Shown here: positions 3,823 to 63,484 of the stretch, one piece after another
Numbering within the stretch: the first letter of the stretch is position 1
Layout: every line of letters begins with the position of its first letter
NCBI GenBank assembly: GCA_965237375.1
Contig: CBDEFI010000006.1
Coordinates: 418,407 to 482,406, forward strand
Source: Acidimicrobiales bacterium
GTDB taxonomy: Bacteria; Actinomycetota; Acidimicrobiia; Acidimicrobiales; CATQHL01
Reading direction: 5' to 3'
Length of the DNA: 64,000 bases
Translations under genes and position numbers: made by a program
Notes under the pieces: generated by a model
The model's database searches: none
The model's input: only the letters and a program-made list of their open reading frames with translations
Told to the model about the DNA's origin: nothing

Positions 3823-4197
3823 TCAAATCCGAAGAGCCGCTATGGCGCTTCGGAAATTAGCGGGGTGTGATGGTGGCCAAGCGAGCACTGTGCGGACCCG
3901 TTGTCGGGTCCGTCTAGCGGTTTCGGGTTTCGCAGTCCAGATCGGCTCAAGGACGCGCAGCACGTCGGCTTGCTGGATGCGGTGCACGGGCATGGCACCG
4001 AGCACCCCGAACGCGTGACGCTCGAGAGTCTGCATCCACGAGGCGTTGCGCCACCGTGGGCGGTTCGCCTTGTGGACCGCTTCGGCGGCTTGCCGGAAGG
4101 TGGGCGTCGTGCGCCTGCGGCTCTCAGCGAACGGGTCACGCCCCTGCGCAACGGCGCCGCGGTTCTCCATGGCCCTCAATACCTGCGAAAGCACCAT
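3823..4197 (-). pseudogene. Tyrosine integrase fragment (core-binding/SAM-like middle region only)
   Basis: ...TFRQAAEAVHKANRPRWRNASWMQTLERHAFGVLGAMPVHRIQQADVLRVLEPIWTAKPETARRTRQRVRTVLAW matches the P4-type integrase N-proximal domain. Both the arm-binding N-terminus and the catalytic C-terminal domain are absent. Confidence 0.6.
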
Positions 4198-4561
4198 TGA
4201 TGGTCCGAACTCTCGTTTTCGCAAGCTCAGGACCGTCCAGGATAGCCGCGGTGAAGGATGGACTCGTCGGAAACGGTCGGGCGGCGGGTCCGTGAACGGC
4301 GGGGGGCTCCAGAATCGGGTGTAGCACAAACCAACGCGTGGAGGCTCCCGGCGGCGGAGAACCCTACGCGTACCTGTGGGTTGATCGTCGGCCTGGGCGA
4401 GTTCGCCGACCTCGGCTCTGACGGGGCTGTGCGCGCCGGCACTGGTCTGCGCGACAAGCTCAGTGTGAGCGACGGCCACGTCGCCGAGCCGGCTGTCGGC
4501 GAAGTTCCCGGGTACCGCTGCGCCGCTGCCGCAACGGTGGTCTCGACGCGCCTGGTTATCG

Positions 4562-12597: not shown

Positions 12598-12598
12598 C

Positions 12599-12929: not shown

Positions 12930-13205
12930 TGGACTCGGCTCTTGGGCGTCCGCCCGCGCCCTTCCAGCAGCACACTCACGCAGAGAGCACGTCACGGGGG
13001 CATCCTTGCCCTCTCGATCGTTCCCCGCCGGCAAGACAGCAACGACCACCGCCCGTCCGGGCGCCGCATCGACCCCGGAGAACTCCCGGTCATACCCACC
13101 GAGTCGCGTGAGAAGAAGTGTGGGAGATCGTCCAGAGAGAGCTCTCCAAATACACTCTGACCAGGCTGTTCCCGAGATCGTATGATTCCCCCAGCTCCGC
13201 TCTGG
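12930..13205 (+). promoter_or_regulatory. Island-end module: ~230-bp conserved arm + paired GTG(A/G)GA(A/G) boxes + degenerate ssrA-3'-end core
   Basis: Homologous to 63255-63480 (gttggactcggct...ggcaagacagcaacgaccaccgcc...). Boxes lie at 13108-13114 and 13119-13125. The core gattcccccagctccgctctgg (13184-13205) compares with the ssrA end gattccccccagctccactttgg. Confidence 0.55.
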
Positions 13206-17172: not shown

Positions 17173-17879
17173 TCAAGTGCGGGTTGTGAGGGTGGCGAGG
17201 TCGGCTCGGAGGGTGCGGTAGAGCTCGCGGGGCGACGAAGCGTTTGAGGCAGCGGATGACTTCTTTCTTGGTCTTGCCTTCGGCGAGGCGGCGGTCCATG
17301 TAGCCGCGAGTTCGTTCGCAGTAGCGCAATCGGACGAGGACGATCATGTGCAGGGCTCGGTTGGCTGCGCGGTTGCCTGGGTAGTTGAGCCGGTGACGGC
17401 TGGTGCGCCCGCTCGACGCGGGGACCGGCGCGGTTGCGCACAGGTGAGCGAAGGACGCCTCGGAGCCGAGCCGGTCGATGTTCTCGCCCGCGGCGACGAG
17501 CAGGGTCGCGGTGTGGTGAGTGCCGCATCCGAGACGGGACACCGTCGAGGGCGCCGCGGCGGCGACCAGCCGGTCGAGCCGGCGCTCCAGATCGGCGGCC
17601 TCGGAGCCGAGCCGGGCGATGCGACGCCCCAGACTGCGCAACGCCGTCTTGGCGGCCTGGGCGGGATCGGCGAGGCGGTCGGTGTCGGGGCGCAGTCGGG
17701 CGCACACGGCAGCCTTGGCCTCGAGGGTCCGACGGCCGTCGAGCTGGTGGCGCAACGCGGCAGGGGCCGTGACGAGCAGGTCGCCGAGCTGGCACAACGC
17801 GGCGGCGCGGGCCTTGATAGCGCTGTTTCGGGCGACGCTGAGCTGGCGGATCGCCTCGACGATTCCGGTGGTGTCCTTA
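17173..17879 (-). pseudogene. IS110-family transposase, C-terminal half (truncated by IS1380 copy B, plus a frameshift)
   Basis: ...AIRQLSVARNSAIKARAAALCQLGDLLV...LGCGTHHTATLLVAAGENIDRLGSEASFAHLCATAPVPASSGRTSRHRLNYPGNRAANRALHMIV...KTKKEVIRCLKRFVA. An extra C near 17232 breaks ...RELYRTLRADL...*. The DEDD N-domain is missing. Confidence 0.8.
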
Positions 17880-19310
17880 GCCTGGATCCACCGGTGGGGT
17901 CTGGTCTGTGGGGGCTAGGGGTGCGCGGAAGTGCCTCGCTGACCTGGGAGAATAGCCGTTAGCAACAGCGGCTACGGCCCGAGTTCGGGAGGCACTTCCT
18001 GTGAGTGAAGTATCGCGCAAGATTGATCGGTTCGGGGTGGTTTTCGACGACGAGTCGTTGGTGGCCGATGCGGGCTTGTTGGCGGCGGGCACGCTGCTGA
18101 GCCGGTTGGGTGTGGCGGCGATCGTTGACCGTGTGGTGTGCCTGTCGGGGCGCGCGGGTGGGGCGGGTCCGGGTCGCAAGGTGGTGACGTTGGTGGCGGC
18201 GATGCTGGTGGGCGCGACGCACATCGATCACGCGAATCGGTTGCGCGCCGGCGCGACGCGGCGGGTGTTGGGGTTCACGGTGATGGCGCCGTCGACGTTG
18301 GGGACGTTCCTGCGTTCGTTCACGTGGGGTCACGTCCGCCAGTTGGACAAGGCGGCCGGCGAGGTGCTGCGCGCGGCGTGGTTGGTCAGCGGCGGCCCCG
18401 GGGAGGATGCGATGACCATCGACGTGGACTCGACGATCTGTGAAGTGGTCGGCAAGGCGAAGGCCGGCGCCGCCTACGGCTACACCGCCGAGTTGGGCTA
18501 TTGCCCGTTGGTGGCGACCCGCGGCGAGACCGGCGAGGTGCTGCATGCCCGCCTGCGCAAGGGGTCGGCCAGAGCGGCAACGCCCATTTCGTCGCCGAAA
18601 CCGTCCACCGCGCCCGACGCGCCGGCGCGACCGGCGAACTGACCGTGCGCGCCGACGCGGGGTTCTGGTCCTATGACCTCCTCGACACTCTGGAGCGCCT
18701 CAAGGTGCGCTGGTCGATCACGATGCCGCTGTACGCCCACGTCAAAGCCGCCATTGATGCCATTGCCGACGCGGACTGGACGCCGATCGACTATCGGCTC
18801 GGCGGCGAAGCGCACGTGGCGGCGACCACCCTCGTCGCCGGCGCCCGCGGCGAGGGGCGCAAGCTGCGCCTCGTGGTGCGCCGCAGCCGCCTCACCGACG
18901 AAACACAAGCGGCGTTATGGCCCGACTGGCGCTACCACGCCTTCGTCACCAACACCACATCTGACACCGTCGCCGCCGACGTGTTCCACCGCCAACACGC
19001 CACCGTCGAACTCGCCATTCGCGACCTCAAGAACTCCACCGGCCTCGCCCACCTGCCGTCGGGACGCTTCGCCGCCAACGCCGCCTGGCTGACCTGCGCC
19101 ACCCTGGCCCACAACCTCTACCGCTGGATCAACCACCACACCCCCAACCGCCGCGGCCGACTCACCGCCGGGCAAACCGTCCGCAACCAACTCCTCGCCC
19201 TCCCCGGACGCCTCGTCAACCACGCCGGACGCACCATCTTGCGCCTACCCGCCCACTGGCCCTGGGCGCCCACCTTCCACACCACCCTCACCAACATCCG
19301 CAACCTCCCC
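17880..19310 (+). mobile_element. IS1380-family element, copy B (abutted at its 3' end by IS3 type 1)
   Basis: Same sequence as copy A but without the nested IS3 type 2. The junction with IS3 type 1 (…caacctcccc|tgttctgg…) is identical in both copies. Confidence 0.8.
18001..19310 (+). pseudogene. IS1380-family transposase with an internal frameshift (~18560)
   Basis: ORFs 18001-18642 and 18501-19424 join into one IS1380-type protein only after a frame change following LHARLRKGSA. The C-terminal read-through enters IS3. Confidence 0.8.
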
Positions 19311-19398
19311 TGTTCTGGTTCTGAGTTCGTGTCCGGTTTTGGGTGGTTGATTAGCCCACATTGGGGGTGGGAGCGTGGCGTTGTGAAGGGAGCGTCAG

Positions 19399-19740
19399 AT
19401 GAGCAGTTCTTCGAAGTCCGGTGAGCGTGGCAGGCGCCGTCGGCGGTTCTTGTCGCCGGCGGAGAAGTATGAGGCGTTCGTGCAGGTGCTGACCGGTGAG
19501 ATGACCGTCGCTGCGTGCGCGGATCATTGGGGGGTGGATCGTTCGACGATCATGAAGGCCCGCGAGGTGGCCAAGCGGGGCGCCCTGGAGGCGTTGGCGT
19601 CGTCGCGGCCGGGGGTGCGCGCGGGCGGTGAGGATCCCGAGTTGGCAATGGCCCGCGGTGAGGTGGCGCGGCTGGGTGAGGCGCTCAAGGAGATGGCGGT
19701 GAAGGTCACGTTGTTGGAGGGAAAAGAGCGTTGGGGGTGA
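19399..19740 (+). CDS. IS3-family transposase OrfA
   Basis: Identical to the 6500-6841 product. Confidence 0.9.
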   Translation: MSSSSKSGERGRRRRRFLSPAEKYEAFVQVLTGEMTVAACADHWGVDRSTIMKAREVAKRGALEALASSRPGVRAGGEDPELAMARGEVARLGEALKEMAVKVTLLEGKERWG

Positions 19741-20774
19741 ACGCCGGCGTGCCCCCGCGTGTCGATGCCGGTGTCAAGGCCGCCTTGTTGGACCTCGTCG
19801 ATGGTGCCGTGGGCGAGGGTTGGGCGGCGTCTCGGGCGTGCGCTGTGTTGGAGTTGGATTCCCGCCGCTGGCGGCGGTGGCGGCACCGCCAGGCGGCCGG
19901 CCGCCTCGACGACAGCGCCGCCGGCGGCGGCGCTGTGCACGCCATCACGCCCGCCGAGCAGCAGGCGATCTTGGAGCTGTTCGACGCGTGGGGCGACATC
20001 GACGGCGGCTACCGCAAGCTCGCGCACCGCGCCTCCTATGAGGGGCTCGTGTGGGTGTCACCGTCGACGGTGTACCGCACCCTGGCAGGTCAGGGCCTTG
20101 TCCTACCCGCCCGGCCTCAGCGCAGTCCCGCTGCGGCGCGCCCGATGCCGGACTGGGTGCGCTGGGAACGCCACCAGATCTGGATCTATGACATCACCCA
20201 CTTCCCCCGCGCGAACCAGGTCGCCTACGCCATCTTGGACGTCGTTACCCGCAAATGGCTCGCCACCCTCGTCAGCGTCGAGGAGACCGCCACACAGGTC
20301 GAAGTCGTCTTCTGCGACGCGCTCGACGCCGAAGGACTCTGGGAACACATCGAGGCCCGCCAAGCCAACAGCGACGACGCCGAGCCGATCCTGCTGGCCA
20401 TGAGCGACAACGGCCCTCAAATGCGCGCCGGCACCACACGAGAGTTCTTCGCCATGTGCTCCATCGCCGCGCACTACGGCCGCCCCGGCACCCCGACTGA
20501 CCAAGCATGGATCGAAACGCTCTTCGGCCACATCAAAACCGAATGGCCCCACCTCGAACAAATCACCGACCCCAACACGCTGCGCACCGAACTCGACACC
20601 GTCCGCGACGACTACAACACCCGACGCCTGCACGCCTCCCTCCGCTACGTCACCCCCGACGACGAACACCAAGGACGTGGCGACACCATCCGCCAGGCCC
20701 GCCGCGACGGCCTCACCCGAGCCCGCCGCGACCGCATCGCCTACCATCGCAAAAACAAACCAACCCAGCCATGA
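19731..20774 (+). CDS. IS3-family transposase OrfB
   Basis: 347 aa, near-identical to the 5466-6509 product. Confidence 0.9.
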   Translation: MGVNAGVPPRVDAGVKAALLDLVDGAVGEGWAASRACAVLELDSRRWRRWRHRQAAGRLDDSAAGGGAVHAITPAEQQAILELFDAWGDIDGGYRKLAHRASYEGLVWVSPSTVYRTLAGQGLVLPARPQRSPAAARPMPDWVRWERHQIWIYDITHFPRANQVAYAILDVVTRKWLATLVSVEETATQVEVVFCDALDAEGLWEHIEARQANSDDAEPILLAMSDNGPQMRAGTTREFFAMCSIAAHYGRPGTPTDQAWIETLFGHIKTEWPHLEQITDPNTLRTELDTVRDDYNTRRLHASLRYVTPDDEHQGRGDTIRQARRDGLTRARRDRIAYHRKNKPTQP

Positions 20775-21107
20775 CCCCCCACCCCGAACGTGGGCTAATC
20801 AAACCGCCCAAAGCGGACATTCACTCAGAAGCACCTCACGTTCAGGGGGCGGTACGCCTAAGTTGCCGCCAGGTTGTTGGCGTCGGCCAGAATCCGTAGT
20901 CGATGACGGTGATGACCTCGCAGTCGGTGCTCATGTCGGCCCAGGCATCGGCACGGCCCATGCCGCCAAGGTGACGGACCAGTGATCCTCCCCGGGTCTT
21001 GCGCAGGCTGTGGTGTGCCCCGTGTTCCGCGCGGTCGGAGGTGAGCCCCGGGTTTCGCGCGGTCAGGTCATTTGATCGGTGGCGGAGGCGAGGGCACCCC
21101 TGAGACG

Positions 21108-21365
21108 CAGTTCCCACACTTGTTCCCACGCGGCGTGGCGGGAAACCTGACGCACAGCAGGCACGGGTAAGACCGCGTCAAGTCAAGCGCCGCTGTGACC
21201 TCGGAGTTCTGAGGCGTCATGGTGGCTCATGAGTCCGCATGGGGTCGCATGAGCGTCCAAAGTGGAGCTGGGGGGAATCACATCATCACGACAAAGACCT
21301 GGTCAGAGGGTATTCGGAGAGCAATCTCTGGACGACTTCCCACGCTTGTTCCCACGTGGTCTGGG
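21108..21365 (-). promoter_or_regulatory. attP-like / island-junction module (arm boxes - exact ssrA core - conserved arm - arm boxes)
   Basis: TTCCCAC pairs lie at 21111-21117/21123-21129 and 21337-21343/21349-21355, either side of the core at 21257-21279. The ~125 bp between core and left boxes is conserved with 27710-27830, 57460-57590 and 61470-61600. Confidence 0.6.
21257..21279 (-). repeat. Exact 23-nt inverted copy of the ssrA 3' end/flank (43692-43714)
   Basis: ccaaagtggagctggggggaatc is the reverse complement of gattccccccagctccactttgg. Confidence 0.95.
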
Positions 21366-21451
21366 TAGCTTGGTCGCGGATCCCGGGGCACGCCTCAGCG
21401 GGCGCAATACCCGGGGAGAGTCACCGACCGCCGCGTGGGTAGCGTGGGGCT

Positions 21452-22090: not shown

Positions 22091-22166
22091 ATTTCTCCGA
22101 TCAGCGGAGGGATCATCGCCATCTGATCGGACCTCGCCGCCGAGCGCTATTCACGCTATTCATATG

Positions 22167-24163: not shown

Positions 24164-24776
24164 AGTTCTGCGGGATCACCGAATGCGGCCGAGTGCGGCG
24201 AGCACGATGTCGGTCGCGTGCAGCGTTTGCCACGCCGCCAGGGAGATGTCGCGGCGCTGCCGAAATCCAGAACAGGGCACGATTCGGGCGAGGCGCGGCG
24301 AGATGGTTTGAATCACCCGGGCCTGGTTGAGGCGCCGGTGTGCTCTGGTTTCGCGCGATCAGCTTGCTCGATCTCGGGCGGTGGTCCCGGTGTGACGAAG
24401 CGCGTACGCAACGACATCGAGCCAGCCCCGCCGGCGGCCCCACCCGCAGTTTCTCCTCGGGGCTCTTCTTCGATGCCTTCGCCATGCTCATCTCCTTACG
24501 TCAGACTCAAACCACCGCCTGAGCAAGAAACGATGACACGCGACAGGCTCAACCCTGACGCGACTGAACCCCGACTGATCGAAAGGCGCCGCCGGGCGGA
24601 GTTGAACGTTCCCCCTGCGCCCCGGTTCCCACGCGTCTTCCCACACAGGTCACCAGCCCTTGTGGGAGCGGGTCGAGTGGGCCTTGCCACCCCGCCCCAG
24701 CGCTCAGGCGAGGGGGCCGAGACCGAAACCGCCCAGCCGCCGCGAATCCTGGGGAGGTTGGCCGCGTTGGGGGTCG

Positions 24777-27486: not shown

Positions 27487-27684
27487 GCACGGAGGGTACC
27501 CACCGGCCCTGACAGGCGGCCTAGACCTCTGCGTCAGACGCTCGACCTCGGCGGCACCTCACCCGCGGCTAGCTTGCTCGATACCGGGCAGTGGTTGAGG
27601 ATCGCACGAGATTGGTGTGCCCTGGGTTTCGCGCTGTCAGGTCGCTTGATTTTGGACGGCGCTGAGCCCTACGACGAAACGCAC

Positions 27685-27922
27685 TTCCCACATCTCTACC
27701 CACACGGGATGGCGTGATGGCTGACGCACAGCAGGCACGGATGCAACCGTGTCAAATGAAGCGCCGCTATGACCTCGTAGTTCTGGGTCTTCACGGCAAC
27801 TCATGAGTGCCCATGGGGTCGCATGAGCGCTCGGAGTGGGGTGTTAGCGAGTACCTCTGACCAGCACCTTCGCCGCAGCGGCTGGAGACCTCCACATTTT
27901 GAAGGGGTAGGTCTCCACATTT
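27685..27922 (-). promoter_or_regulatory. Island-junction module (degenerate core, two kinds of arm repeats)
   Basis: TTCCCAC/TACCCAC lie at 27685-27691/27697-27703. Conserved arm: ...gcgccgctatgacctcg...catggggtcgcatgagcgctcggagtggggtgttagc. CTCCACATTT lies at 27890-27899 and 27913-27922 (23-nt period). Confidence 0.5.
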
Positions 27923-33486: not shown

Positions 33487-34176
33487 TTGAAGACCCGGCC
33501 CGAACCCCCGCACGACGCCCGGCGGGCGGAGATGGTGCGGCGGCAACTGGCCCGCCGGGGCATCTCCGACCTGCGCCTTCTGGAAGCGATGGGGGCGGTG
33601 CCGCGCGAGGAGTTCGTCCCCCGCACCCAGCGGCGCAGCGCCTACGCCGATCGTGCCCTGCCCCTCGGGTGCGGCCAGACCGTGTCGCAGCCATACGTGG
33701 TGGCGGCCACCTTGCAGGCTCTGCGACTGGCGCCCACCGACCGCGTCCTGGAGGTCGGTGCGGGCTCGGGGTACGCGGCCGCCGTGGCGGGCCGGCTGGC
33801 GGCCACCGTCGTCGCCCTCGAGCGGATCGAGTCGCTCGCCGGCAACGCCCGTGAGCGTCTGGACTCCCTCGGCTACACCAACGTGACGGTTGTCTGGGCC
33901 GACGGCACGCAGGGCCACCCGCCGCGCGCCCCCTACGACGCCATCTTCCTTTCCGCCGCTGCTGCGACGGTCCCCGAGGTGCTGTTCACCCAACTCGCCC
34001 CCGGTGGACGGCTCGTGGCACCCGTCGGTCCCGCCGGCGGCGAGCAACAGTTGGCCCTGTACGAGCGGGGCGCGCCCGGCGACGAAGCCTCGTCCGCACC
34101 CGACACGCACCGCACCCACCTGCTGCCCGTGGCGTTCGTACCGCTGCTCCCCGGTGTGCGGCGGTCGGACAAGTAG
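33487..34176 (+). CDS. pcm: Protein-L-isoaspartate O-methyltransferase
   Basis: LLEAMGAVPREEFVP...GQTVSQPYVVAATLQAL...VLEVGAGSGYAAAV...ERIESLA...APYDAIFLSAAA..VPEVLFTQLAPGGRLVAPVG. Confidence 0.9.
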   Translation: MKTRPEPPHDARRAEMVRRQLARRGISDLRLLEAMGAVPREEFVPRTQRRSAYADRALPLGCGQTVSQPYVVAATLQALRLAPTDRVLEVGAGSGYAAAVAGRLAATVVALERIESLAGNARERLDSLGYTNVTVVWADGTQGHPPRAPYDAIFLSAAAATVPEVLFTQLAPGGRLVAPVGPAGGEQQLALYERGAPGDEASSAPDTHRTHLLPVAFVPLLPGVRRSDK

Positions 34177-34232
34177 CCTGTCGGCGCCCAACGGCCCGTT
34201 CCGACACGCCGCAACCCCACCGTGACCCCACC

Positions 34233-34931
34233 ATGACATCTTCCCGACCTGTTCAGATCGTCCCCTCCACTCTCTCCGCGGATTTCAGCCGGCTCGGCGA
34301 GGAGTGCGCCGCCTTGGAGGACGCGGGTGCCGACCGCATCCAGTGGGACGCGATGGACGGGGTCTTCGTGCCCAACCTCACGTTCGGCCCCGACGTCATC
34401 GCAGCCGCCCGCCCGCACACCTCGCTGCCGTTCGAGGTCCACCTCATGGTGCAGGCCCCGGAGGCGCTGGCGGAGCGCTACGCGGCGGCCGGTTGCGAGT
34501 TGCTGATCGTGCACGCCGAGGCCTGCGTGCACCTGCACCGCACCCTGGAGCAGATCAGGGGACTCGGGGTCGCTGCCGGGGTGGCGCTGAACCCGGCCAC
34601 TCCGTCGGCGGCCGTGGCACACGTGCTGGACCTGCTGGACATGGTGCTGGTGATGACGGTGAACCCGGGCTTCGGTGGCCAGAAGTACATAGCCACGATG
34701 GAGCCCAAGATCACCGAGGTGCGCCGGCTGGCCGATGCCGCGGGGCGGGACATCGACATCGAGGTGGACGGCGGGATCGGCCCCGGCACGATCGCGGGAG
34801 CGGCCGCTGCAGGTGCCAACCTGTTCGTGGCAGGCAGCGCCGTGTTCGGCAATCCCGCTGGATTGACCGCCGCCGTGGACGATCTGCGCCGACGGGCCGA
34901 GGCGGCCCGTATGCCGGGCGCCTCTACCTAG
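34233..34931 (+). CDS. rpe: Ribulose-phosphate 3-epimerase
   Basis: IVPSTLSADFSRLGEE...DAMDGVFVPNLTFGP...FEVHLMV...VALNPATP...VLVMTVNPGFGGQKYI...IEVDGGI. Confidence 0.92.
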   Translation: MTSSRPVQIVPSTLSADFSRLGEECAALEDAGADRIQWDAMDGVFVPNLTFGPDVIAAARPHTSLPFEVHLMVQAPEALAERYAAAGCELLIVHAEACVHLHRTLEQIRGLGVAAGVALNPATPSAAVAHVLDLLDMVLVMTVNPGFGGQKYIATMEPKITEVRRLADAAGRDIDIEVDGGIGPGTIAGAAAAGANLFVAGSAVFGNPAGLTAAVDDLRRRAEAARMPGAST

Positions 34932-35551
34932 CCGATCTCGCCGCGGTTGGCGATGACCTCGTCGATGATGCCGTAGTCCTTGGCCTGCTCGGCGGTGAAC
35001 CAGCGGTCGCGGTCGAAGTCCTCCTCCACCTGGGCGACCGGCTGGCCGGTGTGGGAGGAGATGCGCTCGGCGAGGATCTTCTTGATGTAGATCATCTGCT
35101 CGGCCTGAATGGCGATGTCGGACGCCTGACCCTGCACGCCGCCGTGGGGCTGGTGCATGAGGATGCGTGCGTGCGGCAGGGCGTAGCGCTTGCCCGGAGC
35201 GCCGGCACAGAGCAGGAACTGCGCCATCGAGGCGCCGAGGCCCATGCAGACGGTGCCCACGTCGGGGGTGACGAACTGCATGGTGTCGTAGATGGCCATT
35301 CCCGAGGTGATCGACCCGCCGGGGGAGTTCACGTACAACCAGATGTCCCGGTTGCGGTCCTGGCCCTCGAGGTACAGCAACTGCGCCGTGATGTAGTTGG
35401 CCAGCTCGTCGTCCACGGTGCGGCCGAGGAACACGATCCGCTGGCGCAGCAGTTGGTGGAAGATGTCCTGCGCCGGGTCGCGTCCCGATCCGTCACCGTC
35501 CCGCAACACGGGGGGCCCGCCCGACAGGTCCACAGTCGACAACTCCACCAC
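34928..35551 (-). CDS. clpP: ATP-dependent Clp protease proteolytic subunit
   Basis: LLRQRIVFLG..VDDELANYITAQLLYLE...IWLYVNSPGGSITSGMAIYDTMQF...VCMGLGASMAQFLL...LMHQP. The GTG start follows GGAGG. The upstream ORF extension is tRNA antisense. Confidence 0.9.
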   Translation of the reverse strand: MVELSTVDLSGGPPVLRDGDGSGRDPAQDIFHQLLRQRIVFLGRTVDDELANYITAQLLYLEGQDRNRDIWLYVNSPGGSITSGMAIYDTMQFVTPDVGTVCMGLGASMAQFLLCAGAPGKRYALPHARILMHQPHGGVQGQASDIAIQAEQMIYIKKILAERISSHTGQPVAQVEEDFDRDRWFTAEQAKDYGIIDEVIANRGEIG

Positions 35552-35609
35552 TACACCTCCAGAACGTCCTGCGCGCAGGCTACCGATAATCTGAACGTCG
35601 GCCACGCCC

Positions 35610-35694
35610 GCGCCAGTGGCGGAATCTGGCAGACGTGCAGGGTTTAGGTCCCTGTGAGCTTCGGCTCGTGTGGGTTCGAATCCCACCTGGCGCA
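35610..35694 (+). tRNA. tRNA-Leu (anticodon TAG), class II with long variable arm
   Basis: Acceptor GCGCCAG/CTGGCGC+A. D region GTGGCGGAATCTGGCAGAC. Anticodon stem-loop CAGGG-TTTAGGT-CCCTG. Variable arm TGAGCTTCGGCTCGT. T arm GTGGGTTCGAATCCCAC. CCA is not encoded. Confidence 0.9.
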
Positions 35695-35734
35695 CGGCGG
35701 GCGCCGCGGACGGTTGGACGGGGCGCCGCAGGGG

Positions 35735-36328
35735 TCAGGACGGCTCGGCCAGCAGCTGCGCCAGACGCCGCAGGGCACGGCCTCGGTGGCCGATCTCGCT
35801 CTTGGCGGCGAGGCTCATCTCGGCGAACGTGACGTCGCCGGGCGACGGCACGAAGACCGGGTCGTAGCCGAAGCCCCTCTCACCGCGCCGCCGCGTGGCG
35901 ATGTACCCCTCCACGACGCCGTGGGCCGGCACGTCCCGCCCGTCGGGCCAGCGCGCCACGACCACGGTGCGGAATCGGGCGGTGCGCTCGCCCGGCGGCA
36001 CCCCGGCGAGGGCGTCGAGGAGCTTGGCGACGTTGGCGGCGTCGCCGGCGGAAGCGCCGGCGTAGCGAGCCGAATGCACGCCGGGAGCGCCGGCGAGGGC
36101 GTCGACCTCCAGGCCGGTGTCGTCGGCCAGGGCAGCGGCACCGGCGAAGTCGGCGACGGCCACCGCTTTGGCGCGGGCGTTGGCCTCCAGCGTGGCACCC
36201 ACCTCGGGAACCTCGGCCAACCCCTCCGGGCGTGCCAGCAGGATCGCCACCCCCTCCAGCGCGACCCGCATCTCCACCAGCTTGTGCGGGTTGGCCGTGG
36301 CGGCCACAAAGGTGATCGTCGGGTTCAC
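35735..36328 (-). CDS. rdgB: Non-canonical purine NTP pyrophosphatase (RdgB/HAM1 family)
   Basis: [16 protein letters not shown]...LEANARAKA...[25 protein letters not shown]...RTARFRTVV...[14 protein letters not shown]...[20 protein letters not shown]. Confidence 0.9.
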
Positions 36329-37065
36329 GCCCCCGGGCGCGACGGCGGCGGCCGGCGCAGGATCTCCCGCTGGTGGCGCACGATCTCGGCGATGCCGCCG
36401 GCGGCGAGGTCCAGCATCCGGTCCAGTTCGTGGCGGTCGAAGGGCACCTGCTCGGCGGTGCCCTGGATCTCGATCAGCCTCCCGGCGGCGGTGGTGACGA
36501 TGTTCATGTCCACGTCGGCTCCCGCGTCCTCGCTGTAGTCGGGGTCCAGCACCACGTGACCGCCCACGACGGCAACCGACACGCCTGCGCAGGCATCCAC
36601 AAGAGGATGCGCCCGTAGCTTGCCGTCGGCCAGCAGCCGGCTGAGAGCATCATGCAGCGCCACGTACCCGCCGCAGATCGACGCCACCCGCGTGCCGGCG
36701 TCGGCCTGCAGCACGTCGCAGTCCACGATCACCTGCCGCTCACCGAGGAGGCTCAGGTCGCAGACGGCCCGCAACGAGCGGCCCACCAGACGCTGGATCT
36801 CCTGGGTGCGTCCGGACTGGCGGCCGCTGCGAGCCTCCCGGTTGACGCGCTCGGGCGAACTGCCGGGCAGCATGGAGTACTCGGCGGTCACCCAGCCGCT
36901 GCCCCGGCCCCGCATCCAGCGGGGCACGTCCTCGCTCACCGAAGCGGTGCAGAGAACCCGGGTGCGTCCCATGTCCACGAGCACCGAGCCGTCGGCCATG
37001 GCTGTGTAGTCGCGCGTGAAGTGCAGGGGGCGCAGTTCGTGCGGCGCGCGTCCGTCGGGTCTCAC
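36325..37065 (-). CDS. rph: Ribonuclease PH
   Basis: GTG at 37065 follows GAGGAG. Motifs: [13 protein letters not shown]...[18 protein letters not shown]...[15 protein letters not shown]...[17 protein letters not shown]...[21 protein letters not shown]. It overlaps the rdgB start. Confidence 0.92.
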
Positions 37066-37261
37066 CTGTGGTCTCCTCGCTTCGGGATCGACAACCCCGC
37101 CACGTTGGTGCGCCCGGGGTGCGATCAGGTTAGGGGGTGCCCCTGCCGGCGAACTCCGGCCTCTCCTCGGCGCCGGCGGCATCGCCTGTGAGGCCATTCC
37201 CACCCCAACGTGCCACGTGCCGCGCAAGCACAGTTCACGCGTCGGTCCTATAGTGCTCGCC

Positions 37262-39130
37262 ATGACAAAGAAACCTCTCCCCACAAGGGGAAAGACCCAT
37301 CGAATCGGCCTGAGAAGGCTCGCAGTCGCCCTGGCGGCTACCGGCCTTCTGGTCTCGGCGGTGGCACTCGTGCCAACCGCGCTCAACGCACAGGACAACG
37401 CGGACTTCACGCTCACCATCCTGCACAACAACGACGGCGAGTCGAAGCTGCTGCCCAATGCGGACAGGGGCTTCCCCGGCATCGCCCGGTTCGTGACCGC
37501 TCTGCGGAACCTGCAGTCCGGCGCCACCACCGACGGGGTGGTCACCTTCACGTCGGGCGACAACTTCCTGGCCTCCAAGGAGTTCAACATCAGCCTCGAG
37601 CAGGGAGTCCCGTTCTATGACTCCATCGCCCTGAGCGGCCTGTACGACGCCATGGCGGTCGGGAACCACGACATGGACTTCGGCCCCGACGTGGCCGCGG
37701 ACTTCTTCAGGGGCTTCGACCCGCCGGTGGTGTTCCTCTCGGCCAACATGGACGTGTCCGCTGAGCCGGTGCTCGTGGCCATGGTCGAGCAAGGTCGCCT
37801 CGCCCGCAGCACCGTCGTGGAAACCGGCGGCGAGAGGATCGGCGTCATCGGCGCCATCACCCCGATGCTGATAGCGATCTCCACGCCACGCGACACCATC
37901 ATCTCCGACGTTGCCACGGCGGTCAACGCCGAGGTCGCGGCCCTCACCGCCGACGGCGTCAACAAGATCATCCTCATCAGCCACCTCCAAGCGGTGCGCG
38001 AGGACGTGGAGGCGCTCGCCTCCATATCGGGGGTGGACGTGGCCATCGCGGGCGGCGGCGACGAGATGCTGCGCAGCGACACGAGTACCTGCCTGCCCGA
38101 GGAGGAGGCGAGGGGTCCGTACCCGACGGAAGCCACCGACGCCGACGGCAACACCGTGCCGGTCATCACAGCGCCCGGCGGCTATCGCTGCATCGGCGAA
38201 CTCATCGCCACGTTCGACGCCGACGGGAACCTGCTCTCCGCTGAGGGTCGCTCCATCGGCGTGAGCCTCGACGAGACCCCCGACCCCGACGTCCTGGCGT
38301 CGGTGGAGGAGCCCCTGATCGCAGCTCTGGTAGCGCTGGATTCCAACATCCTGGCCACCACCGAGGTGGACCTGGATGGTCGGCGCTCCCAGATCCGCAC
38401 GCGCGAGACCAACGAGGGCAACCTGGTCGCCGACGCCTCGCTCTGGGTGGGCACCCAGCGGGCCGAGGCCTACGGCGCGCCGGTCCCGGACATCGGGCTG
38501 CAGGGCGGCGGCGGCATCCGCAACGACTCGATCCTGCCCGCCGGCAGCGACCTCACCGAGTCCACCACCTGGGACATCTCGCCGTTCAACAACTACATGG
38601 CCACCATCGTGCTGACGCGCGAACGGCTGAAGGAGGCGCTGGAGGTCTCCTACGACTGCATCCCGGGCGGCTGCGGGCAGTACTCGCAGGTGGCAGGCAT
38701 GAGCGTGGTGGTCGACATCGGCATGCCGGCCCGCGAGACCGACCGCGAAGGCGACTGCTCCAACAACGGCCACGAAGGGGCCCGTGTGCGCAGCGTCGTC
38801 CTCGATGACGGCACGGTCATCGTCGAAGACGGCGAGGTCGTCCCGGGCGATACGGTCGTCCTGACGACGGTGAGCTGGTTCGCCAACGGCGGGGACTGCT
38901 TCCCGGCTGCCGATCTGGACCACACCCGCCTGGGCATCTCCGACCAGCGCGCTCTGGCCGAGTACATCGTCGATGGCCTCGGCGGCGTCGTGACGGCCGA
39001 GCAGTACCCGGTCGGCGGCGAGGGCCGCGTCACCATCATCGACTCGTCCGCGGACGAGATGGGTGACATGGACGACGGCGCGGGAGCCGAGGAGGAGACG
39101 GGACCGCCTCCGGAAGAGCCCACCGGCTAG
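37262..39130 (+). CDS. Secreted 5'-nucleotidase / metallophosphoesterase family protein
   Basis: Signal peptide. Motifs: [25 protein letters not shown], and a C-terminal 5'-nucleotidase substrate-binding-like region ([11 protein letters not shown]...). Confidence 0.8.
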
Positions 39131-39204
39131 TTCATCACCAGCCGCTGAACCGAGTCCGGCCCCGGGTGTTGAGCCCGGGGCCGGCCCCTTCCCGGAGCCG
39201 CACT

Positions 39205-39339
39205 CGTCATTCCGGCGAAGGCCGGAATCCATGCGTACTGAGATTCCCCCCAGCACCATCCGTCGATGTCCACACGCGTCATTCCGGCGAAGGCCGGAAT
39301 CCATGCGTGCTGAGATTCCCCCCGGCACCATCCGTCGAT
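39205..39339. repeat. Two tandem 63-bp hairpin-containing intergenic repeats (period 72 bp) between convergent genes
   Basis: cgtcattccggcgaaggccggaatccatgcgt.ctgagattcccccc.gcaccatccgtcgat occurs twice (39205-39267 and 39277-39339). The stem is TTCCGGC-GAAG-GCCGGAA. This is a likely REP-like or bidirectional terminator element. Confidence 0.7.
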
Positions 39340-39353
39340 TGTGCCGGAGCCGG

Positions 39354-40304
39354 TCAGAAGTAGATGATCCGCTCGGCGCGGGCGACGACCTCGTCGATGG
39401 GGTCGGTCCACGCCCGCGTCGAGAGGTACTTCCAGCCACCGTCGGCGGCCACGAAGACGATCACGCCTGATTCGATGCGCTCCGCCACCCGGCAGGCCCC
39501 GGCCAGGGCCGCCCCGCTGGAGATGCCAGCGAACACCGACACCTCGGCGGCCAGGCGCCTCGTGTAGTCGATTGCCTCGCGGGTGCGGATAATGCGCTTG
39601 CCGTCGAGCAGCTCGTCACCGCCCCAGTTCTCGTAGACGGGCGGGATGTAGCCGTCGTCCAGGCTGCGCAGCCCCTCCACCTTCTCCCCCGCCGGCGGCT
39701 CCACGGCATACAGCAGCACGTCCGGCTTGTTCTCCTTCAGGTACCGGCCGCAGCCCATGAGCGTCCCGGCGGTGCCCAGGCCGGCCACGAAGTGCGTGAT
39801 GTCGGGGCAGTCGGCGAGGATCTCCGGGCCGGTCGTCTCGTAGTGCGCCCGTGGGTTGGCCTCGTTGGCGTACTGGCACAGGTACGCCCATTCGGGATGC
39901 TCGGCGGCGAGGCGCTCGGCGCGGCGCACCGCCCCGTTGGAGCCCTCGGCGCCCGGCGAGTCGATCACCTCTGCGCCGTAGATGGCCAGCAGGTCGCGCC
40001 GCTCGCTGGACACGTTCTCCGGCAGGACGATCTTCACCGGGTAGCCACGCAGCCGGGCGATCAGCGCCAGGGCGATGCCGGTGTTGCCAGACGAGGGCTC
40101 CAGGATGATGGTCCCCGGCTGCAGCGTCCCGTCGGCCTCCGCGGCGTCGATCATCGAGCGGGCGACGCGATCCTTCACCGAACCGCCGGGGTTCTGACCC
40201 TCCAGCTTGGCGAGGATGCGCACCGCCGGGTTGGGGCTCAGCACGCTCACGTCCACGACGGGCGTGTTGCCTATGCAATCGATAACGGAGGCGTGGACGG
40301 GCAT
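39354..40304 (-). CDS. cysM: PLP-dependent cysteine synthase (CysM/CysK family)
   Basis: IGNTPVV...AKLEGQNPGGSVKDRVA...EPSSGNTGIALA...GLGTAGTLMG...GISSGAAL. It is adjacent to a Mec-like JAMM gene, as in the actinobacterial mec-cysO-cysM cluster. Confidence 0.85.
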   Translation of the reverse strand: MPVHASVIDCIGNTPVVDVSVLSPNPAVRILAKLEGQNPGGSVKDRVARSMIDAAEADGTLQPGTIILEPSSGNTGIALALIARLRGYPVKIVLPENVSSERRDLLAIYGAEVIDSPGAEGSNGAVRRAERLAAEHPEWAYLCQYANEANPRAHYETTGPEILADCPDITHFVAGLGTAGTLMGCGRYLKENKPDVLLYAVEPPAGEKVEGLRSLDDGYIPPVYENWGGDELLDGKRIIRTREAIDYTRRLAAEVSVFAGISSGAALAGACRVAERIESGVIVFVAADGGWKYLSTRAWTDPIDEVVARAERIIYF

Positions 40305-40429
40305 GGCAGGCTGCCGGCAATTGTTGACTGAATCGCTGGGGATTCTACCGGGTGGTTCTCACGCCCATGCCTTCGCCTGGACGCCGCCTCTCGCACCGAC
40401 ACGCCCCGGGCGACCTCGCAGCACCGGCC

Positions 40430-40846
40430 TCACGCCCCAACCTGCACCTGCTCCTCGCTGATCACCCCGGCGAGAATGCGGTAGCTGCGCAGCACCGGCT
40501 CGGGATGCTTTAACGAGACGATCACGTGGTGCCACACGCCGAGAGGGTCGAAGCGGGCGGCCTGGGCCACGTCGGTGGGCGAGGGATAGGCCGTCGTGCG
40601 GGAGTGGGAGTGCATGACACCCACGACCACCAGATCCGCCGCCTCGGCCCGGTTCTCGACCGCGAGATGTTCGGCACCGTCGAGTTCGTAGATGCGTTCG
40701 GAGGCGGCGGCGTTGGTCATCGGGTAGAAGGCTGCCACGTCGTCGCTGCCCGAAGCGGCGGCGAACAGCCCGCAGGCCTCCAGCGGCATGCCCGCCACGG
40801 CATGGGCCAACATCCGGTGGTACACGTCGCTGTTCAACGTCAGCAC
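40430..40846 (-). CDS. mec: JAMM/MPN+ metalloprotease (Mec-like)
   Basis: PLEACGLF...VGVMHSHSRTTAYPSPTDV, i.e. an E...HSH...S..D JAMM motif. Confidence 0.8.
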   Translation of the reverse strand: MLTLNSDVYHRMLAHAVAGMPLEACGLFAAASGSDDVAAFYPMTNAAASERIYELDGAEHLAVENRAEAADLVVVGVMHSHSRTTAYPSPTDVAQAARFDPLGVWHHVIVSLKHPEPVLRSYRILAGVISEEQVQVGA

Positions 40847-40914
40847 AGCGCCCAGCGTACGGCCACCCGATCCCTCCGCCGCCCCCGTCGGCGACCGCTC
40901 GCTACCCTGCGGAC

Positions 40915-41403
40915 ATGACCGATCGGGACGTCAAGGTTGTCGCCACCAACCGGCGCGCCCGGCGCGACTACGAGATCATCGCCACCTACGAATGCGGTCT
41001 GGTGCTCCGTGGCAGCGAGGTGAAATCGCTGCGCGACGGAACGGTGACGCTGGCCGAGGCCTACGGCAGGGTGAGCCGTGGTGAGGTCTGGCTGCACTCG
41101 ATGCACGTGCCGCCTCATGCCAACACCGGCGGTGCGTTCGCGCTCGACGCCGACCGGCCACGCAAGCTGCTGCTGCACCGCACGGAGATCAACCGGATCC
41201 GTGTCCGGGTCGAGCAGGACGGACTGCTGCTCATCCCCCTGGCGGTGTACTTCAGCGATGGGCGCGCCAAGGTGGAGATGGCCGTAGCGCGGCGGCAGCG
41301 CAAGGTGGATCGCCGGACCGTTCTGGCCCGCCGCGAGGCCGAGTTGGAAGCGCGCCGGGCGCTCGCCCAAGCCAACCGCGACCACGACCGCTACAGGCGC
41401 TGA
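40915..41403 (+). CDS. smpB: SsrA-binding protein
   Basis: ATNRRARRDYEI..TYECGLVLRGSEVKSLR...W L..MHV.P...........DRPRKLLLHR.EI. Confidence 0.92.
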   Translation: MTDRDVKVVATNRRARRDYEIIATYECGLVLRGSEVKSLRDGTVTLAEAYGRVSRGEVWLHSMHVPPHANTGGAFALDADRPRKLLLHRTEINRIRVRVEQDGLLLIPLAVYFSDGRAKVEMAVARRQRKVDRRTVLARREAELEARRALAQANRDHDRYRR

Positions 41404-41462
41404 GCGTGCCACGGGCGAGAGTCGACTCTCGTATCCGGAGATCACCTGCTAGCATTCCGGCG

Positions 41463-43324: not shown

Positions 43325-43708
43325 GGGGCTGATCGGTTTCGACGTCGAGACCGGGAACCGTGCTACGCGACCGGAGTTGCTCAGACTCCAAAAACGGGGC
43401 ACCAAAGACACGGCAATGATGAACCCGTGCTCCTCGCCGCCTGATCACCTGATCGGACAGTGAGGTAACTGCGACCCCTACGGGGGCACGCGGGGCCCGT
43501 CCGCTGCAGCCTGGCAACAGAAGCAGGGGAGGACAGCAGGGAAAGACCGCTGACGGTGGGAAAGACCGCTGACATCGGAGAAAGATCCGACGGAGCCCTC
43601 ACGGGCAACCGACCCGGCGGTGAGCAACCCGCAAAGCTGTAACCGGGAATGGTCGTATCGGAGACGGCAACCGCTCGACGGACGGGGGTTCGATTCCCCC
43701 CAGCTCCA
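43325..43708 (+). ncRNA. ssrA: tmRNA (SsrA)
   Basis: The 5' GGGGCTGATCGGTTTCGAC pairs with the 3' ...GGACGGGGGTTCGATTCCCCCCAGCTCCA (tRNA-Ala-like acceptor and T arm). The tag ORF is GGC AAT GAT GAA CCC GTG CTC CTC GCC GCC TGA (43412-43444), giving GNDEPVLLAA. It lies downstream of smpB. Confidence 0.9.
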
Positions 43709-43806
43709 CTTTGGGCTCTTAGCGAGTTAGGGCTCGCTGAGTTGTCCAGTTATGCGTTGGCGCGCCGGTTCGGCGCTGGTTTGGGCTGTTTGCGCGCGTT
43801 GGGGGG

Positions 43807-57371: not shown

Positions 57372-57610
57372 AAATGTGGAGACCCCCCTCTTCAAAATGT
57401 GGCGCGCTCCAACGGGTCCTGGGAATCGGCAGGTCAGGTGTGGTGGCTAACACCCCACTTTGGACGCTCATGAGGCCCCATGTGCACCCATGAGCCGCCA
57501 TGACGCCCCAGAACTCCGAGGTCACAGCGCCGCGTGCAGTTGACACTGATTCGCCCGTTCTTGCTGGGTGTCAGCTATCACGCCATCCCGCGTGGGAATA
57601 GACGTGGGAA
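57372..57610 (+). promoter_or_regulatory. Island-junction module
   Basis: AAATGTGG(A/C)G lies at 57372-57381 and 57395-57404. Degenerate core: ctaacaccccactttgg. Conserved arm: acgctcatgaggccccatg...gttgacactgattcgc...tcagctatcacgccatcccgc. GTGGGAA lies at 57592-57598 and 57604-57610. Confidence 0.55.
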
Positions 57611-57714
57611 CTGCGTCGCCTGGGAGCGCTCACCACCGCCACCGATAAAGCAAACTGACCCCGCGCAACCCGAGGCACACCTCAGTGGGGGTCCCTGTGT
57701 TTGGTGGAGGCGTT

Positions 57715-61618: not shown

Positions 61619-61702
61619 CTGCGTCTCGTGGGAGCCCTCACCTGCGCCTCGGCGGCGTCTCTCGGTCAGTTGGTGTTCAGTCGCGACAGGGTTGAGCCGG
61701 CG

Positions 61703-63480: not shown

Positions 63481-63484
63481 AGCG

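What the first reader, a model, noticed from the sequence alone, without database searches (positions are those of the whole stretch)
21257..21279. Exact 23-nt inverted copy of the ssrA 3' end, 22 kb from the tmRNA gene, embedded in an attP-like module
21257-21279 is the perfect reverse complement of 43692-43714, which covers the last 17 nt of tmRNA plus 6 nt of flank. The copy has paired TTCCCAC boxes on both sides (21111-21129 and 21337-21355). It therefore looks like a P-O-P' site, meaning either attP or a junction between tandem islands. It does not look like a simple attR. The two cores are in inverted orientation and bracket 21.28-43.69 kb. That interval holds the whole housekeeping block (pcm to ssrA) plus VapBC, Doc, AbiE and IS copies. 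Recombination between inverted cores would invert this 22-kb segment rather than excise it. It would convert (ssrA-O-flank, P-O-P') into (ssrA-O-P', P-O-flank). So the locus records either a past integrase- or IS-driven inversion of a tmRNA-integrated island, or a still-invertible segment.
Basis: partly seen in the sequence, partly recalled or inferred. Interest (0 to 1): 0.8.

Follow-up and report, generated by a model that had tools for sequence, protein, structure and literature searches.

The report
Inverted attachment-site junction of tmRNA islands
The 23-base inverted copy of the tmRNA gene's end is a real leftover attachment site, sitting where two decayed mobile islands were joined head to tail; it belongs to a cluster of at least eight such sites around the tmRNA gene of an uncultured Acidimicrobiales bacterium, and it looks like a scar rather than a working switch.

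Summary
21257-21279 is the exact reverse complement of 43692-43714, which is the ssrA 3' end plus CTTTGG; chance predicts no such copy. The site is a P-O-P' junction. Its left arm (21040-21256) belongs to a four-copy P' arm family, which also lies directly 3' of ssrA in relative L004. Weaker arm-like sequence precedes a P4-type integrase gene in L005 and L013. Its right arm (21280-~21450) matches P arms at the attR of a canonical 7.4-kb ssrA island in L004 and at two decayed core copies in the window (13.2 kb, 63.5 kb). Paired GTGGGAA-N5-GTGGGAA boxes sit at fixed distances from the core and occur 7 times, against 0.03 expected. A contig from a close strain (L088, 97-98% identical) joins the same P arm and core to a different P' arm, so the junction partner varies between strains. 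No intact integrase lies in the window. The array containing the site is inverted and lies upstream of a housekeeping block (pcm to ssrA) that is collinear in all relatives. Synteny breaks exactly at pcm. How the array became inverted is unresolved, and nothing shows inversion between these two cores. This is a new member of a known kind; interest is modest.

The parts
21257..21279 (-). Core (O): an exact copy of the ssrA 3' end, 17 nt from the mid T-loop to the discriminator plus CTTTGG
21040..21256 (-). P' arm 'A', with paired boxes at 21111-21129 about 132 nt from the core. It is cut off distally by an IS block about 200 nt further on.
   Evidence: Four-copy family, with homology ending at the core. 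The same sequence type and the same box spacing follow ssrA in L004; L005 and L013 show a weaker resemblance.
21280..21450 (-). P arm, with paired boxes at 21337-21355, 57 nt from the core. It is the end of the element unit E_B.
   Evidence: Aligns with the P arms at 13.1 kb and 63.5 kb, at the L004 attR and in L088.
43325..43714 (+). ssrA (tmRNA gene, ending at 43708) with the partner 23-mer at 43692-43714. The downstream flank has no arm (attB-like).
   Evidence: Rfam. The flank is shared with species L001 and with the conspecific contig L082.
21280..27839 (-). Unit E_B, running from P' arm B to the P arm and core. It holds a 129-aa gene, an HTH_17 (excisionase-like) gene, a 278-aa gene, RHH plus Doc, internal P arm P24, IS fragments, AbiEii and a 96-106-aa 'end gene'.
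   Evidence: Its two ends are joined through a core in L088.
27614..27848 (-). P' arm 'B' (boxes at 27685-27703). It is joined not to a tmRNA core but to GCTAACACCCCAC plus flank F_B (junction J_B).
24580..24644 (-). P arm 'P24' (boxes at 24626-24644). Its core is lost; a conserved segment that I read from memory as an IS3-type end follows it.
13054..13200 (+). P arm 'P13' with a decayed core (GATTCCCCCAGCTCCGC). It lies inside a segment flanked by 99% identical inverted IS blocks.
57372..57683 (+). Flank F_C, junction J_C (GCTAACACCCCAC|TTTGG) and P' arm 'C' (boxes at 57592-57610), in the same orientation as ssrA
61440..61648 (+). Junction J_D (a badly decayed core) and P' arm 'D' (boxes at 61600-61618)
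63400..63550 (+). P arm 'P63' (boxes at 63458-63476) with a decayed core, GATTTCCCGCAGCTCCAA, at 63533-63550. It is an attR-like site in direct orientation, 19.8 kb 3' of ssrA.
33487..43265 (+). Housekeeping block: pcm, rpe, clpP, tRNA-Leu, rdgB, rph, 5'-nucleotidase, PALP enzyme, JAB, smpB and an RCC1-repeat protein. It is collinear in all relatives, and synteny ends at 33488.
17876..20839 (.). IS block (a DDE_Tnp_1_4 element plus an rve/IS481-like element), 99% identical and inverted relative to 5401-9885. Together they bracket 9886-17875.
3823..4479 (-). Truncated P4-type integrase. Only the central domain is left and no catalytic domain is detectable.

Best explanation
The 23-mer is the core (O) of a hybrid P-O-P' attachment junction between two neighbouring, decayed, integrase-less members of a family of integrative elements. 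The family's primary target is the 3' end of ssrA in these Acidimicrobiales. The elements carry their own copy of the tmRNA 3' end, from the mid T-loop onward, so that integration rebuilds the gene. Each integration leaves a core copy flanked by a P arm (paired GTGGGAA boxes about 56 nt upstream) and a P' arm (paired boxes about 132 nt downstream). The boxes are most likely arm-type binding sites for a P4/lambda-like tyrosine integrase. Repeated integration into existing att sites (accretion) built tandem arrays, and the internal junctions of such arrays look like attP. Here the junction joins the P end of unit E_B (21280-27839) to the P' end of the next unit, E_A, which is cut by IS elements. 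The array now lies upstream of ssrA and is inverted relative to it. The cause is either a later chromosomal rearrangement in this IS-rich genome or growth of the array at a secondary site that was already inverted (the J-type junction). The perfect 23-nt identity reflects ordinary attP/attB core identity in young elements. The site is probably a relic today. Shown: the sequence identity, the homology of both arms, the box geometry, the variant junction in another strain, and the synteny break. Inferred: integrase binding, the order of events, the cause of the inverted orientation, and present inactivity.
For: The copy is exact and unique. The P' arm is a four-copy family whose homology stops exactly at the tmRNA end. 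L004 carries this arm type, with the boxes, directly 3' of ssrA. L005 and L013 show weaker arm-like sequence there (73-78% over 55-94 nt including the core, no box pair), followed about 170 nt on by a 387-aa integrase with Arm-DNA-bind_3, Phage_int_M and Phage_integrase domains. L004 has a canonical island: the ssrA core, P' boxes 132 nt downstream, P boxes 55 nt before a direct core repeat, 7.4 kb apart. The finding's P arm aligns with the L004 attR, P13 and P63. Paired boxes occur 7 times against 0.03 expected, all at arms. L088, 97-98% identical to the window, joins the same P arm and a core with one mismatch to a B-type P' arm. The array contents and the ssrA flank are documented. Synteny upstream of pcm is conserved among 7 relatives but missing from the window. 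Homologues of 24.7-27.1 kb lie 3' of ssrA in the opposite relative orientation in L004 and L008. Conspecific contigs diverge from the window at 3481/3724.
Against: No element with an intact integrase and GTGGGAA-box arms was found, so the cognate recombinase is unidentified. The elements in L013 and L005 that do carry an integrase have different distal arms. Junctions J_B and J_C carry GCTAACACCCCAC instead of a tmRNA core and are not explained cleanly. The HTH_17 plus 278-aa gene pair inside E_B occurs without arms in chromosomal contexts in five relatives, so part of the 'element' may be captured or native DNA. L088 is a 2.7-kb short-read contig at 4.4x coverage. The window's own contig could not be fetched, so the large-scale orientation rests on a single assembly.
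Confidence: 0.7

Rival explanations
1. The segment is a live integrase-driven invertible segment. The attP-like site (21.27 kb) and the attB-like ssrA end (43.70 kb) are inverted partners. A cognate integrase encoded elsewhere in the genome flips the 22.4 kb between them, switching between an (attP-like, attB) state and an (attL, attR) state.
For: The substrates are formally right: a P-O-P' site with arm boxes on both sides and a perfect 23-nt core, facing an arm-free ssrA end with the identical core. This core is intact while the cores at 13.2 kb, 24.6 kb, 61.5 kb and 63.5 kb have decayed. Conspecific strains do encode intact P4-type integrases. L088 shows that the P-arm/core junction has had different partners in the recent past.
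Against: The window holds no intact integrase, only a fragment limited to the central domain. The one conspecific contig that covers ssrA (L082) is in the same state as the window. No contig with ssrA-core-arm A or P arm-core-F_s was found; the only 3 metagenome hits to the 23-mer are from another taxon. The inverted polarity extends beyond the interval on both sides, so flipping it would not restore a canonical layout. The neighbouring elements are heavily decayed.
Confidence: 0.07
2. The site is the intact attP of one element that entered the chromosome by another route, such as recombination between IS copies or a cointegrate. On this view E_B and E_A are two halves of a single circularly permuted element, not tandem neighbours.
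For: P and P' arms are contiguous across an undamaged core. IS elements crowd both sides: 17876-20839, 29829-30893 and 31703-32700. L088 shows a circular-permutation-like join of the E_B ends.
Against: The stretch contains further internal arm remnants (P24, arm B/J_B, P13), as expected for an array of several units. In L088 the P arm is joined to a different P' arm (B-type, not A-type), so P_A and arm A are not an obligatory pair. No integrase, replication or transfer genes were found.
Confidence: 0.12
3. The layout is an assembly artefact. The inverted placement of the array relative to ssrA comes from a misjoin across repeats in a metagenome-assembled genome.
For: The window is full of repeats at 95-99% identity, including a 2.5-kb inverted pair and two direct IS pairs. 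The source contig could not be retrieved for checking. Relatives are MAGs.
Against: The A junction itself lies in unique sequence. Arms A and B are only about 76% identical and could not be collapsed. An independent sample yields the same type of junction (L088) and the same ssrA flank (L082). No long repeat sits at 21.28 kb or at 43.7 kb.
Confidence: 0.05
4. The match is a chance resemblance or a generic genomic repeat.
For: A 16/18 look-alike (GATTCCCCCCAGCACCAT) occurs in the 70-nt tandem repeats at 39198-39339.
Against: Chance predicts 0.00 matches. The flanking arms are homologous to att arms in relatives. The 23-mer is rare in metagenomes.
Confidence: 0.01

Closest known systems
Genomic islands integrated in tRNA/tmRNA genes by P4-type tyrosine integrases, including tandem arrays (Islander/TIGER framework, PMC4383910)
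   Same: The target is the 3' part of ssrA. The element carries a replacement 3' end, and a displaced fragment marks the island end. The identity block starts in the T-loop region. Relatives have an integrase gene next to ssrA. Several units sit in tandem.
   Different: The fragment is upstream of ssrA and inverted. Islander's configuration and orientation filters reject exactly this layout as a false positive (PMC4383910). No unit in the window has its own integrase.
[quoted passage not shown]
   Same: Units such as 61473-63550 and 24580-27839 are bounded by P' and P arms and have no recombinase. Internal junctions are P-O-P' hybrids. The order or partner of units differs between strains (L088).
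   Different: CIMEs are described mainly for ICESt1-type elements of Firmicutes. Here no helper ICE or IME was identified, and mobilisation is only inferred.
Dehalococcoides ssrA genomic islands (PMC3146451)
   Same: There are many tandem islands at the single-copy ssrA. [quoted passage not shown] Some units lack integration genes.
   Different: Those islands use a serine recombinase (DsiB), and all their repeats are direct and downstream. Here the associated integrases in relatives are tyrosine recombinases, and half of the sites are inverted and upstream.
Lambda/P4-type attP architecture (a core flanked by arm-type integrase binding sites); from general knowledge
   Same: A short core is flanked on both sides by directly repeated short boxes at fixed distances. 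The family's integrases in relatives carry an N-terminal arm-DNA-binding domain.
   Different: Binding is untested. The box sequence GTGGGAA and the spacings of about 56 and 132 nt are particular to this family.

Membership tests
tDNA-integrated genomic island (Islander criteria) | An intact tRNA/tmRNA gene plus a displaced fragment identical to its 3' end | tested here: met
   tmRNA at 43325-43711; exact 23-nt copy at 21257-21279
tDNA-integrated genomic island (Islander criteria) | The 3' fragment lies downstream of the tDNA and in the same orientation | tested here: not met
   The fragment is 22.4 kb upstream and inverted. The criterion is quoted from PMC4383910. Decayed fragments in direct orientation do exist at 63533-63550 and, upstream, at 13183-13200.
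tDNA-integrated genomic island (Islander criteria) | An integrase gene inside the island | tested here: not met
   Pfam and NCBIfam scans of ORFs across 1-64 kb found only a truncated integrase at 3823-4479. The criterion is met in relatives L002, L005 and L013.
attP-type site (P-O-P') of a tyrosine-integrase element | A core identical to the chromosomal target | tested here: met
   23/23 identity with the ssrA end
attP-type site (P-O-P') of a tyrosine-integrase element | Repeated arm-type sites on both sides of the core, conserved in position among family members | tested here: met
   Paired GTGGGAA boxes lie 55-57 nt upstream and about 131-136 nt downstream of the core at A, P13, P63, arms B, C and D, and at the L004 attL and attR. 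Seven box pairs are found against 0.03 expected.
attP-type site (P-O-P') of a tyrosine-integrase element | The site is bound and recombined by a cognate integrase | not testable with these tools
   Only indirect evidence: integrases in relatives have an Arm-DNA-bind_3 domain, and L088 shows a different P' partner on the same P arm.
CIME (cis-mobilizable element) / accretion array | The unit is flanked by att sites and lacks integration and transfer genes | tested here: met
   61473-63550 runs from P' arm D through EamA to P63 and a decayed core. 24580-27839 runs from P' arm B to P24. Neither holds a recombinase.
CIME (cis-mobilizable element) / accretion array | Mobilised in cis by a related functional element | tested here: inconclusive
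   L088 shows an alternative junction in a close strain, but no helper element was identified.
Programmed invertible DNA segment | Inverted recombination sites bracket the segment | tested here: met
   Inverted 23-mers bracket 21280-43691.
Programmed invertible DNA segment | Both orientations occur in a population, and a dedicated recombinase is present | tested here: not met
   No recombinase lies in the window. The only conspecific contig over ssrA (L082) shows the same state. No alternative junction of the predicted kind was found in the metagenome scan. Read-level data were not available.

The most novel reading that the evidence does not exclude
An attP-like junction and the ssrA attB, inverted on one chromosome, could act as a natural integrase-operated switch. 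It would flip a 22-kb block of essential housekeeping genes (ssrA, smpB, clpP, rph, rpe, pcm) whenever a cognate island integrase is expressed. Island traffic would then be coupled to chromosome architecture in a symbiont-like genome rich in IS elements.
Probability: 0.05. Interest if true: 0.75.

Novelty: new member of a known kind. Interest (0 to 1): 0.3.

Why it matters
The finding shows that a tmRNA fragment in the 'wrong' orientation and on the 'wrong' side can be a genuine att relic. Standard island finders discard such fragments as false positives, so arrays that were later rearranged, or that grew at secondary sites, are undercounted. It also defines a previously undescribed family of arms, with GTGGGAA box pairs at fixed spacing, for ssrA-targeting elements in uncultured Acidimicrobiales. 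And it documents how densely att relics, toxin-antitoxin and Abi modules and IS copies pile up around ssrA there. Beyond that it is ordinary mobile-element archaeology. There is no evidence of a new mechanism.

Tried and rejected
- **The arm as a structured RNA.** Folding gives z = 0.28, so there is no structure signal.
- **Protein-coding explanation for J_B and J_C.** The ORFs that end at the two junctions are not homologous.
- **F_B as a paralogue of the ssrA flank F_s.** The match is 14/16 and in register, but 16 of 300 shuffles score as well. I treat it as unproven.
- **Target-site-duplication test for inversion between the IS blocks 5401-9885 and 17876-20839.** No interpretable duplications were found.
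- **Fetching the window's own contig or conspecific contigs around the A site.**
  - Exact-protein look-ups failed for PALP, rpe, pcm (P0121), RHH, the 96-aa gene and the 80-aa antitoxin.
  - Only smpB, URO-D and the homologues of the 278-aa protein gave loci.
- **Upstream neighbours of pcm.** I looked in the window for the genes that lie upstream of pcm in relatives; there are none. The tblastx version of this search was uninformative noise.
- **Collection searches.**
  - The A site has no match in phages or plasmids.
  - The two arm-plus-core patterns have no match in viral contigs.
  - The 18-mer alone hits 47 viral contigs, but none of them matched the window's arm sequences by blastn.
- **The integrase fragment at 3823-4479 as the array's integrase.** Rejected. 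It sits in a different island next to URO-D that is polymorphic among conspecific strains and has no GTGGGAA boxes.
- **A single inversion between any one pair of sites.** I tried A with ssrA, J_B with J_C, and each IS pair. None restores a fully canonical layout.

Full report
**1. The observation**

21257-21279 (CCAAAGTGGAGCTGGGGGGAATC) is the exact reverse complement of 43692-43714. With up to 3 mismatches allowed these are the only two copies in the window, and shuffles predict 0.00. Rfam finds a complete tmRNA at 43325-43711 on the + strand (69.3 bits). ARAGORN misses it. Pairing of GGGGCUG with CAGCUCC, plus a discriminator A, ends the gene at 43708.

**2. Organism and context**

SmpB (40915-41403) finds Acidimicrobiales MAGs; the best is 86% identical. 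The window has 67% G+C.

From pcm (33487) through rpe, clpP, tRNA-Leu, rdgB, rph, a 5'-nucleotidase, a PALP enzyme, a JAB protein, smpB and an RCC1-repeat protein to ssrA, the window is collinear with all close relatives. Homology begins exactly at 33488.

Seven relatives share conserved genes upstream of pcm (80-90% identical to one another). These genes are absent from the whole window.

Conspecific contigs (99.2% identical) match the window only up to 3481 or 3724. They then continue with an intact integrase island, an epimerase and 2-oxoacid dehydrogenase genes. So everything between about 3.5 kb and 33.5 kb is rearranged or mobile DNA relative to relatives. It holds two AbiEii genes, RHH plus Doc, an excisionase-like HTH_17 gene, IS30-like and IS481-like copies, IS110 and other IS copies.

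**3. Both flanks of the 23-mer are att arms**

*The left flank (21040-21256).* It is one of four copies of a roughly 225-nt sequence:
- A at 21040-21256, on the - strand;
- B at 27614-27839, on the - strand;
- C at 57455-57683, on the + strand;
- D at 61473-61648, on the + strand.

Their mutual homology stops exactly at the bases that correspond to the tmRNA end. In L004 the same type of sequence, with the boxes, lies immediately 3' of ssrA. L005 and L013 show a weaker resemblance there: 73-78% identity over 55-94 nt that include the core, with no box pair. In L013, L005 and L002 a 387-aa integrase gene starts about 170 nt after ssrA. It has Arm-DNA-bind_3, Phage_int_M and Phage_integrase domains. 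The left flank is therefore a P' arm, the integrase-proximal end of an element.

*The right flank (21280 to about 21450).* It aligns with:
- the sequence before the direct core repeat (attR) of a canonical 7.4-kb island in L004 (ssrA core at 10934-10951, repeat at 18354-18371);
- two further sites in the window that end in decayed cores: 13054-13200 (GATTCCCCCAGCTCCGC) and 63400-63550 (GATTTCCCGCAGCTCCAA).

The right flank is therefore a P arm.

*The box geometry.* Paired GTGGGAA-N5-GTGGGAA boxes end 55-57 nt before the core in P arms. They begin about 131-136 nt after it in P' arms. All have the same polarity. Seven pairs occur in the window against 0.03 expected, every one in an arm, and an eighth, degenerate pair lies at 13108-13126. 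Arm-type sites for an integrase with an arm-binding domain are the natural reading. That reading is an inference.

**4. The junction partner varies between strains**

A homologue (97% identical) of the 278-aa protein encoded at 25548-26384 led to contig L088 (2.7 kb, from another sample). L088 is 97-98% identical to the window but has a different order. It runs through:
- window 22271->21803, then 21605->21280 (the end gene and this same P arm);
- a core with one mismatch (GATTCCTCCCAGCTCCAC);
- the first ~69 nt of a B-type P' arm;
- after a deletion, window 27191->25318.

So the P arm and core that are joined to arm A in the window are joined to arm B in a close strain. This is what tandem arrays built in a different order, or the closed (attP) form of unit E_B (21280-27839), would give. 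But it is not the junction that inversion between the two cores predicts.

**5. State of ssrA itself**

The DNA 3' of ssrA (GCTCTTAGCGAG..., then a 675-aa gene on the - strand) has no arm. It is shared with the nearest other species, L001 (92% identical; there CAAGG replaces TTTGG). It is identical in the conspecific contig L082. ssrA is thus in an unoccupied, attB-like state.

The extra TTTGG identity needs no recent exchange. Arms A and C both read CAC TTTGG ACGCTCATG. The A/C-type attP therefore matches this species' attB over the full 23 nt.

**6. Layout of the att relics**

*On the - strand, upstream of ssrA:*
- arm A, the core and P_A, at 21.0-21.45 kb;
- P24 at 24.6 kb. Its core is replaced by a ~110-nt segment that is 93-94% identical in L013 and L005 and that I read from memory as an IS3-type end;
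- arm B at 27.6-27.85 kb.

*On the + strand, downstream of ssrA:*
- arm C at 57.5 kb;
- arm D at 61.5 kb;
- P63 with its decayed core at 63.5 kb.

*On the + strand, upstream of ssrA:* P13 with its decayed core. It sits inside 9886-17875, a segment bracketed by 99% identical inverted IS blocks (5401-9885 and 17876-20839). Flipping that segment would place P13 in line with arm A and give a complete unit E_A. This is inferred only; the target-site-duplication test was uninformative.

Arms B and C are joined not to a tmRNA core but to GCTAACACCCCAC followed by a shared ~85-nt flank. These two J-type junctions are mutually inverted and bracket 27.85-57.45 kb.

**7. How the inverted orientation arose is not resolved**

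Homologues of 24.7-27.1 kb lie 3' of ssrA, in the opposite relative orientation, in L004 and L008. This fits an array that once lay downstream of ssrA and was later inverted or moved. However, the HTH_17 plus 278-aa gene pair also occurs without arms at other chromosomal places in five relatives. In L001's genome it is about 870 kb from ssrA.

An alternative is integration of E_B into a resident J-type site that was already inverted. The unsplit form of such a site, F-GCTAACACCCCAC|TTTGG-arm, is what J_C looks like. That would need crossover at CCAC|T.

No single inversion restores a canonical layout, whether between A and ssrA, between J_B and J_C, or between any IS pair. Any integrase-mediated flip between the two 23-mers presupposes an earlier event that put them in inverted orientation.

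**8. Activity**

The window holds no intact integrase. The fragment at 3823-4479 keeps only the central domain. It belongs to a different island next to URO-D, one without GTGGGAA boxes. No contig with the predicted alternative junctions was found. The arms show no RNA structure and have no relatives in phage, plasmid or viral collections.

**9. Comparison with known systems**

This is the familiar biology of tRNA/tmRNA-targeting islands, tandem accretion and integrase-less CIME-like units (PMC4383910, PMC5704250, PMC3146451). Three things are unusual:
- The displaced fragment is inverted and upstream. Islander filters out that configuration as a false positive.
- Relics are very dense here: at least eight arms within 64 kb.
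- The arm family has not been described before.

**Verdict**

It is a relic junction of tandem ssrA-type elements within a rearranged array. An active 22-kb inversion switch is formally possible but unsupported; I put it at about 5-7%.

Noticed in passing
window 39198-39339: Two 70-nt tandem repeats lie between the 5'-nucleotidase and the PALP gene. They contain a hairpin (CATTCCGGCGAAGGCCGGAATC) and a 16/18 look-alike of the tmRNA end (GATTCCCCCCAGCACCAT). They are also present in the conspecific contig L082.
   Followed up: partly
window 43325-43711: ARAGORN does not call this tmRNA gene, although Rfam scores it at 69 bits over the full model. The gene does not encode the terminal CCA; CTT follows the discriminator.
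   Followed up: partly
window 41523-43265: A secreted-looking protein made of about fifteen 37-aa (111-nt) RCC1-like repeats sits between smpB and ssrA. It is present there in some relatives (L001, L005) and elsewhere in others (L002).
   Followed up: no
window 25544-27083; loci L083-L088, L008: A 1.5-kb module encodes an excisionase-like HTH_17 protein (221-275 aa) and a 278-aa protein with no Pfam or NCBIfam match. More than 700 homologues exist. The module is 84-89% identical across species yet sits in at least four different genomic contexts, with homology ending at the module's edges. It may be mobile in its own right.
   Followed up: partly
window 3303-5400; L079-L081: The DNA right of URO-D is a second integration hot spot. 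Conspecific strains carry different islands there, each with an intact 380-aa P4-type integrase (54% identical to the ssrA-adjacent integrase of L013). One island has DpdD, PLD and helicase genes. No tRNA gene or tmRNA-like core is nearby, so the target is unknown.
   Followed up: partly
window 21452-21772 (+), 27097-27486 (-), 60534-61091 (-): Three paralogous small genes (96-185 aa, no family match) share the conserved C-terminus ...HLSPH(I/V)R.PWERWLR...LLD. Each lies next to an att arm. Two of them are inverted copies at opposite ends of unit E_B.
   Followed up: no
window 21026-21066 and 62176-62216; L004 13170-13250 and 19684-19739; L013 17917-17953: A short repeated motif (CTGACCGCGCGAAACCCGGG...) lies just distal to P' arms and recurs in the islands of relatives. 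Its role is unknown.
   Followed up: no
window 27840-27922 and 57372-57454: The flanks of the J-type junctions carry paired AAATGTGG boxes about 55 nt from the junction, and the reverse complement of the P-arm motif CCTCTGACCAG. They may be a second kind of P arm. This is unexplained.
   Followed up: partly
window 43779-43908 and 47603-47732: A 130-nt direct repeat (85% identical) corresponds to the 3' coding end of the 675-aa gene next to ssrA and a second, apparently truncated copy 3.8 kb away.
   Followed up: no
L006 10977-11377; L002 10964: Relatives show other kinds of decay at ssrA. L006 keeps only the 3' third of the integrase gene directly after ssrA. In L002 the last ~7 nt of ssrA and about 80 nt of arm are deleted relative to L013.
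   Followed up: no
window 47935-49365, 55040-56182, 51141-53782: Defence-like genes lie downstream of ssrA: DUF4041 plus T5orf172, a NERD nuclease, and a KAP NTPase split by an IS4-family insertion.
   Followed up: no
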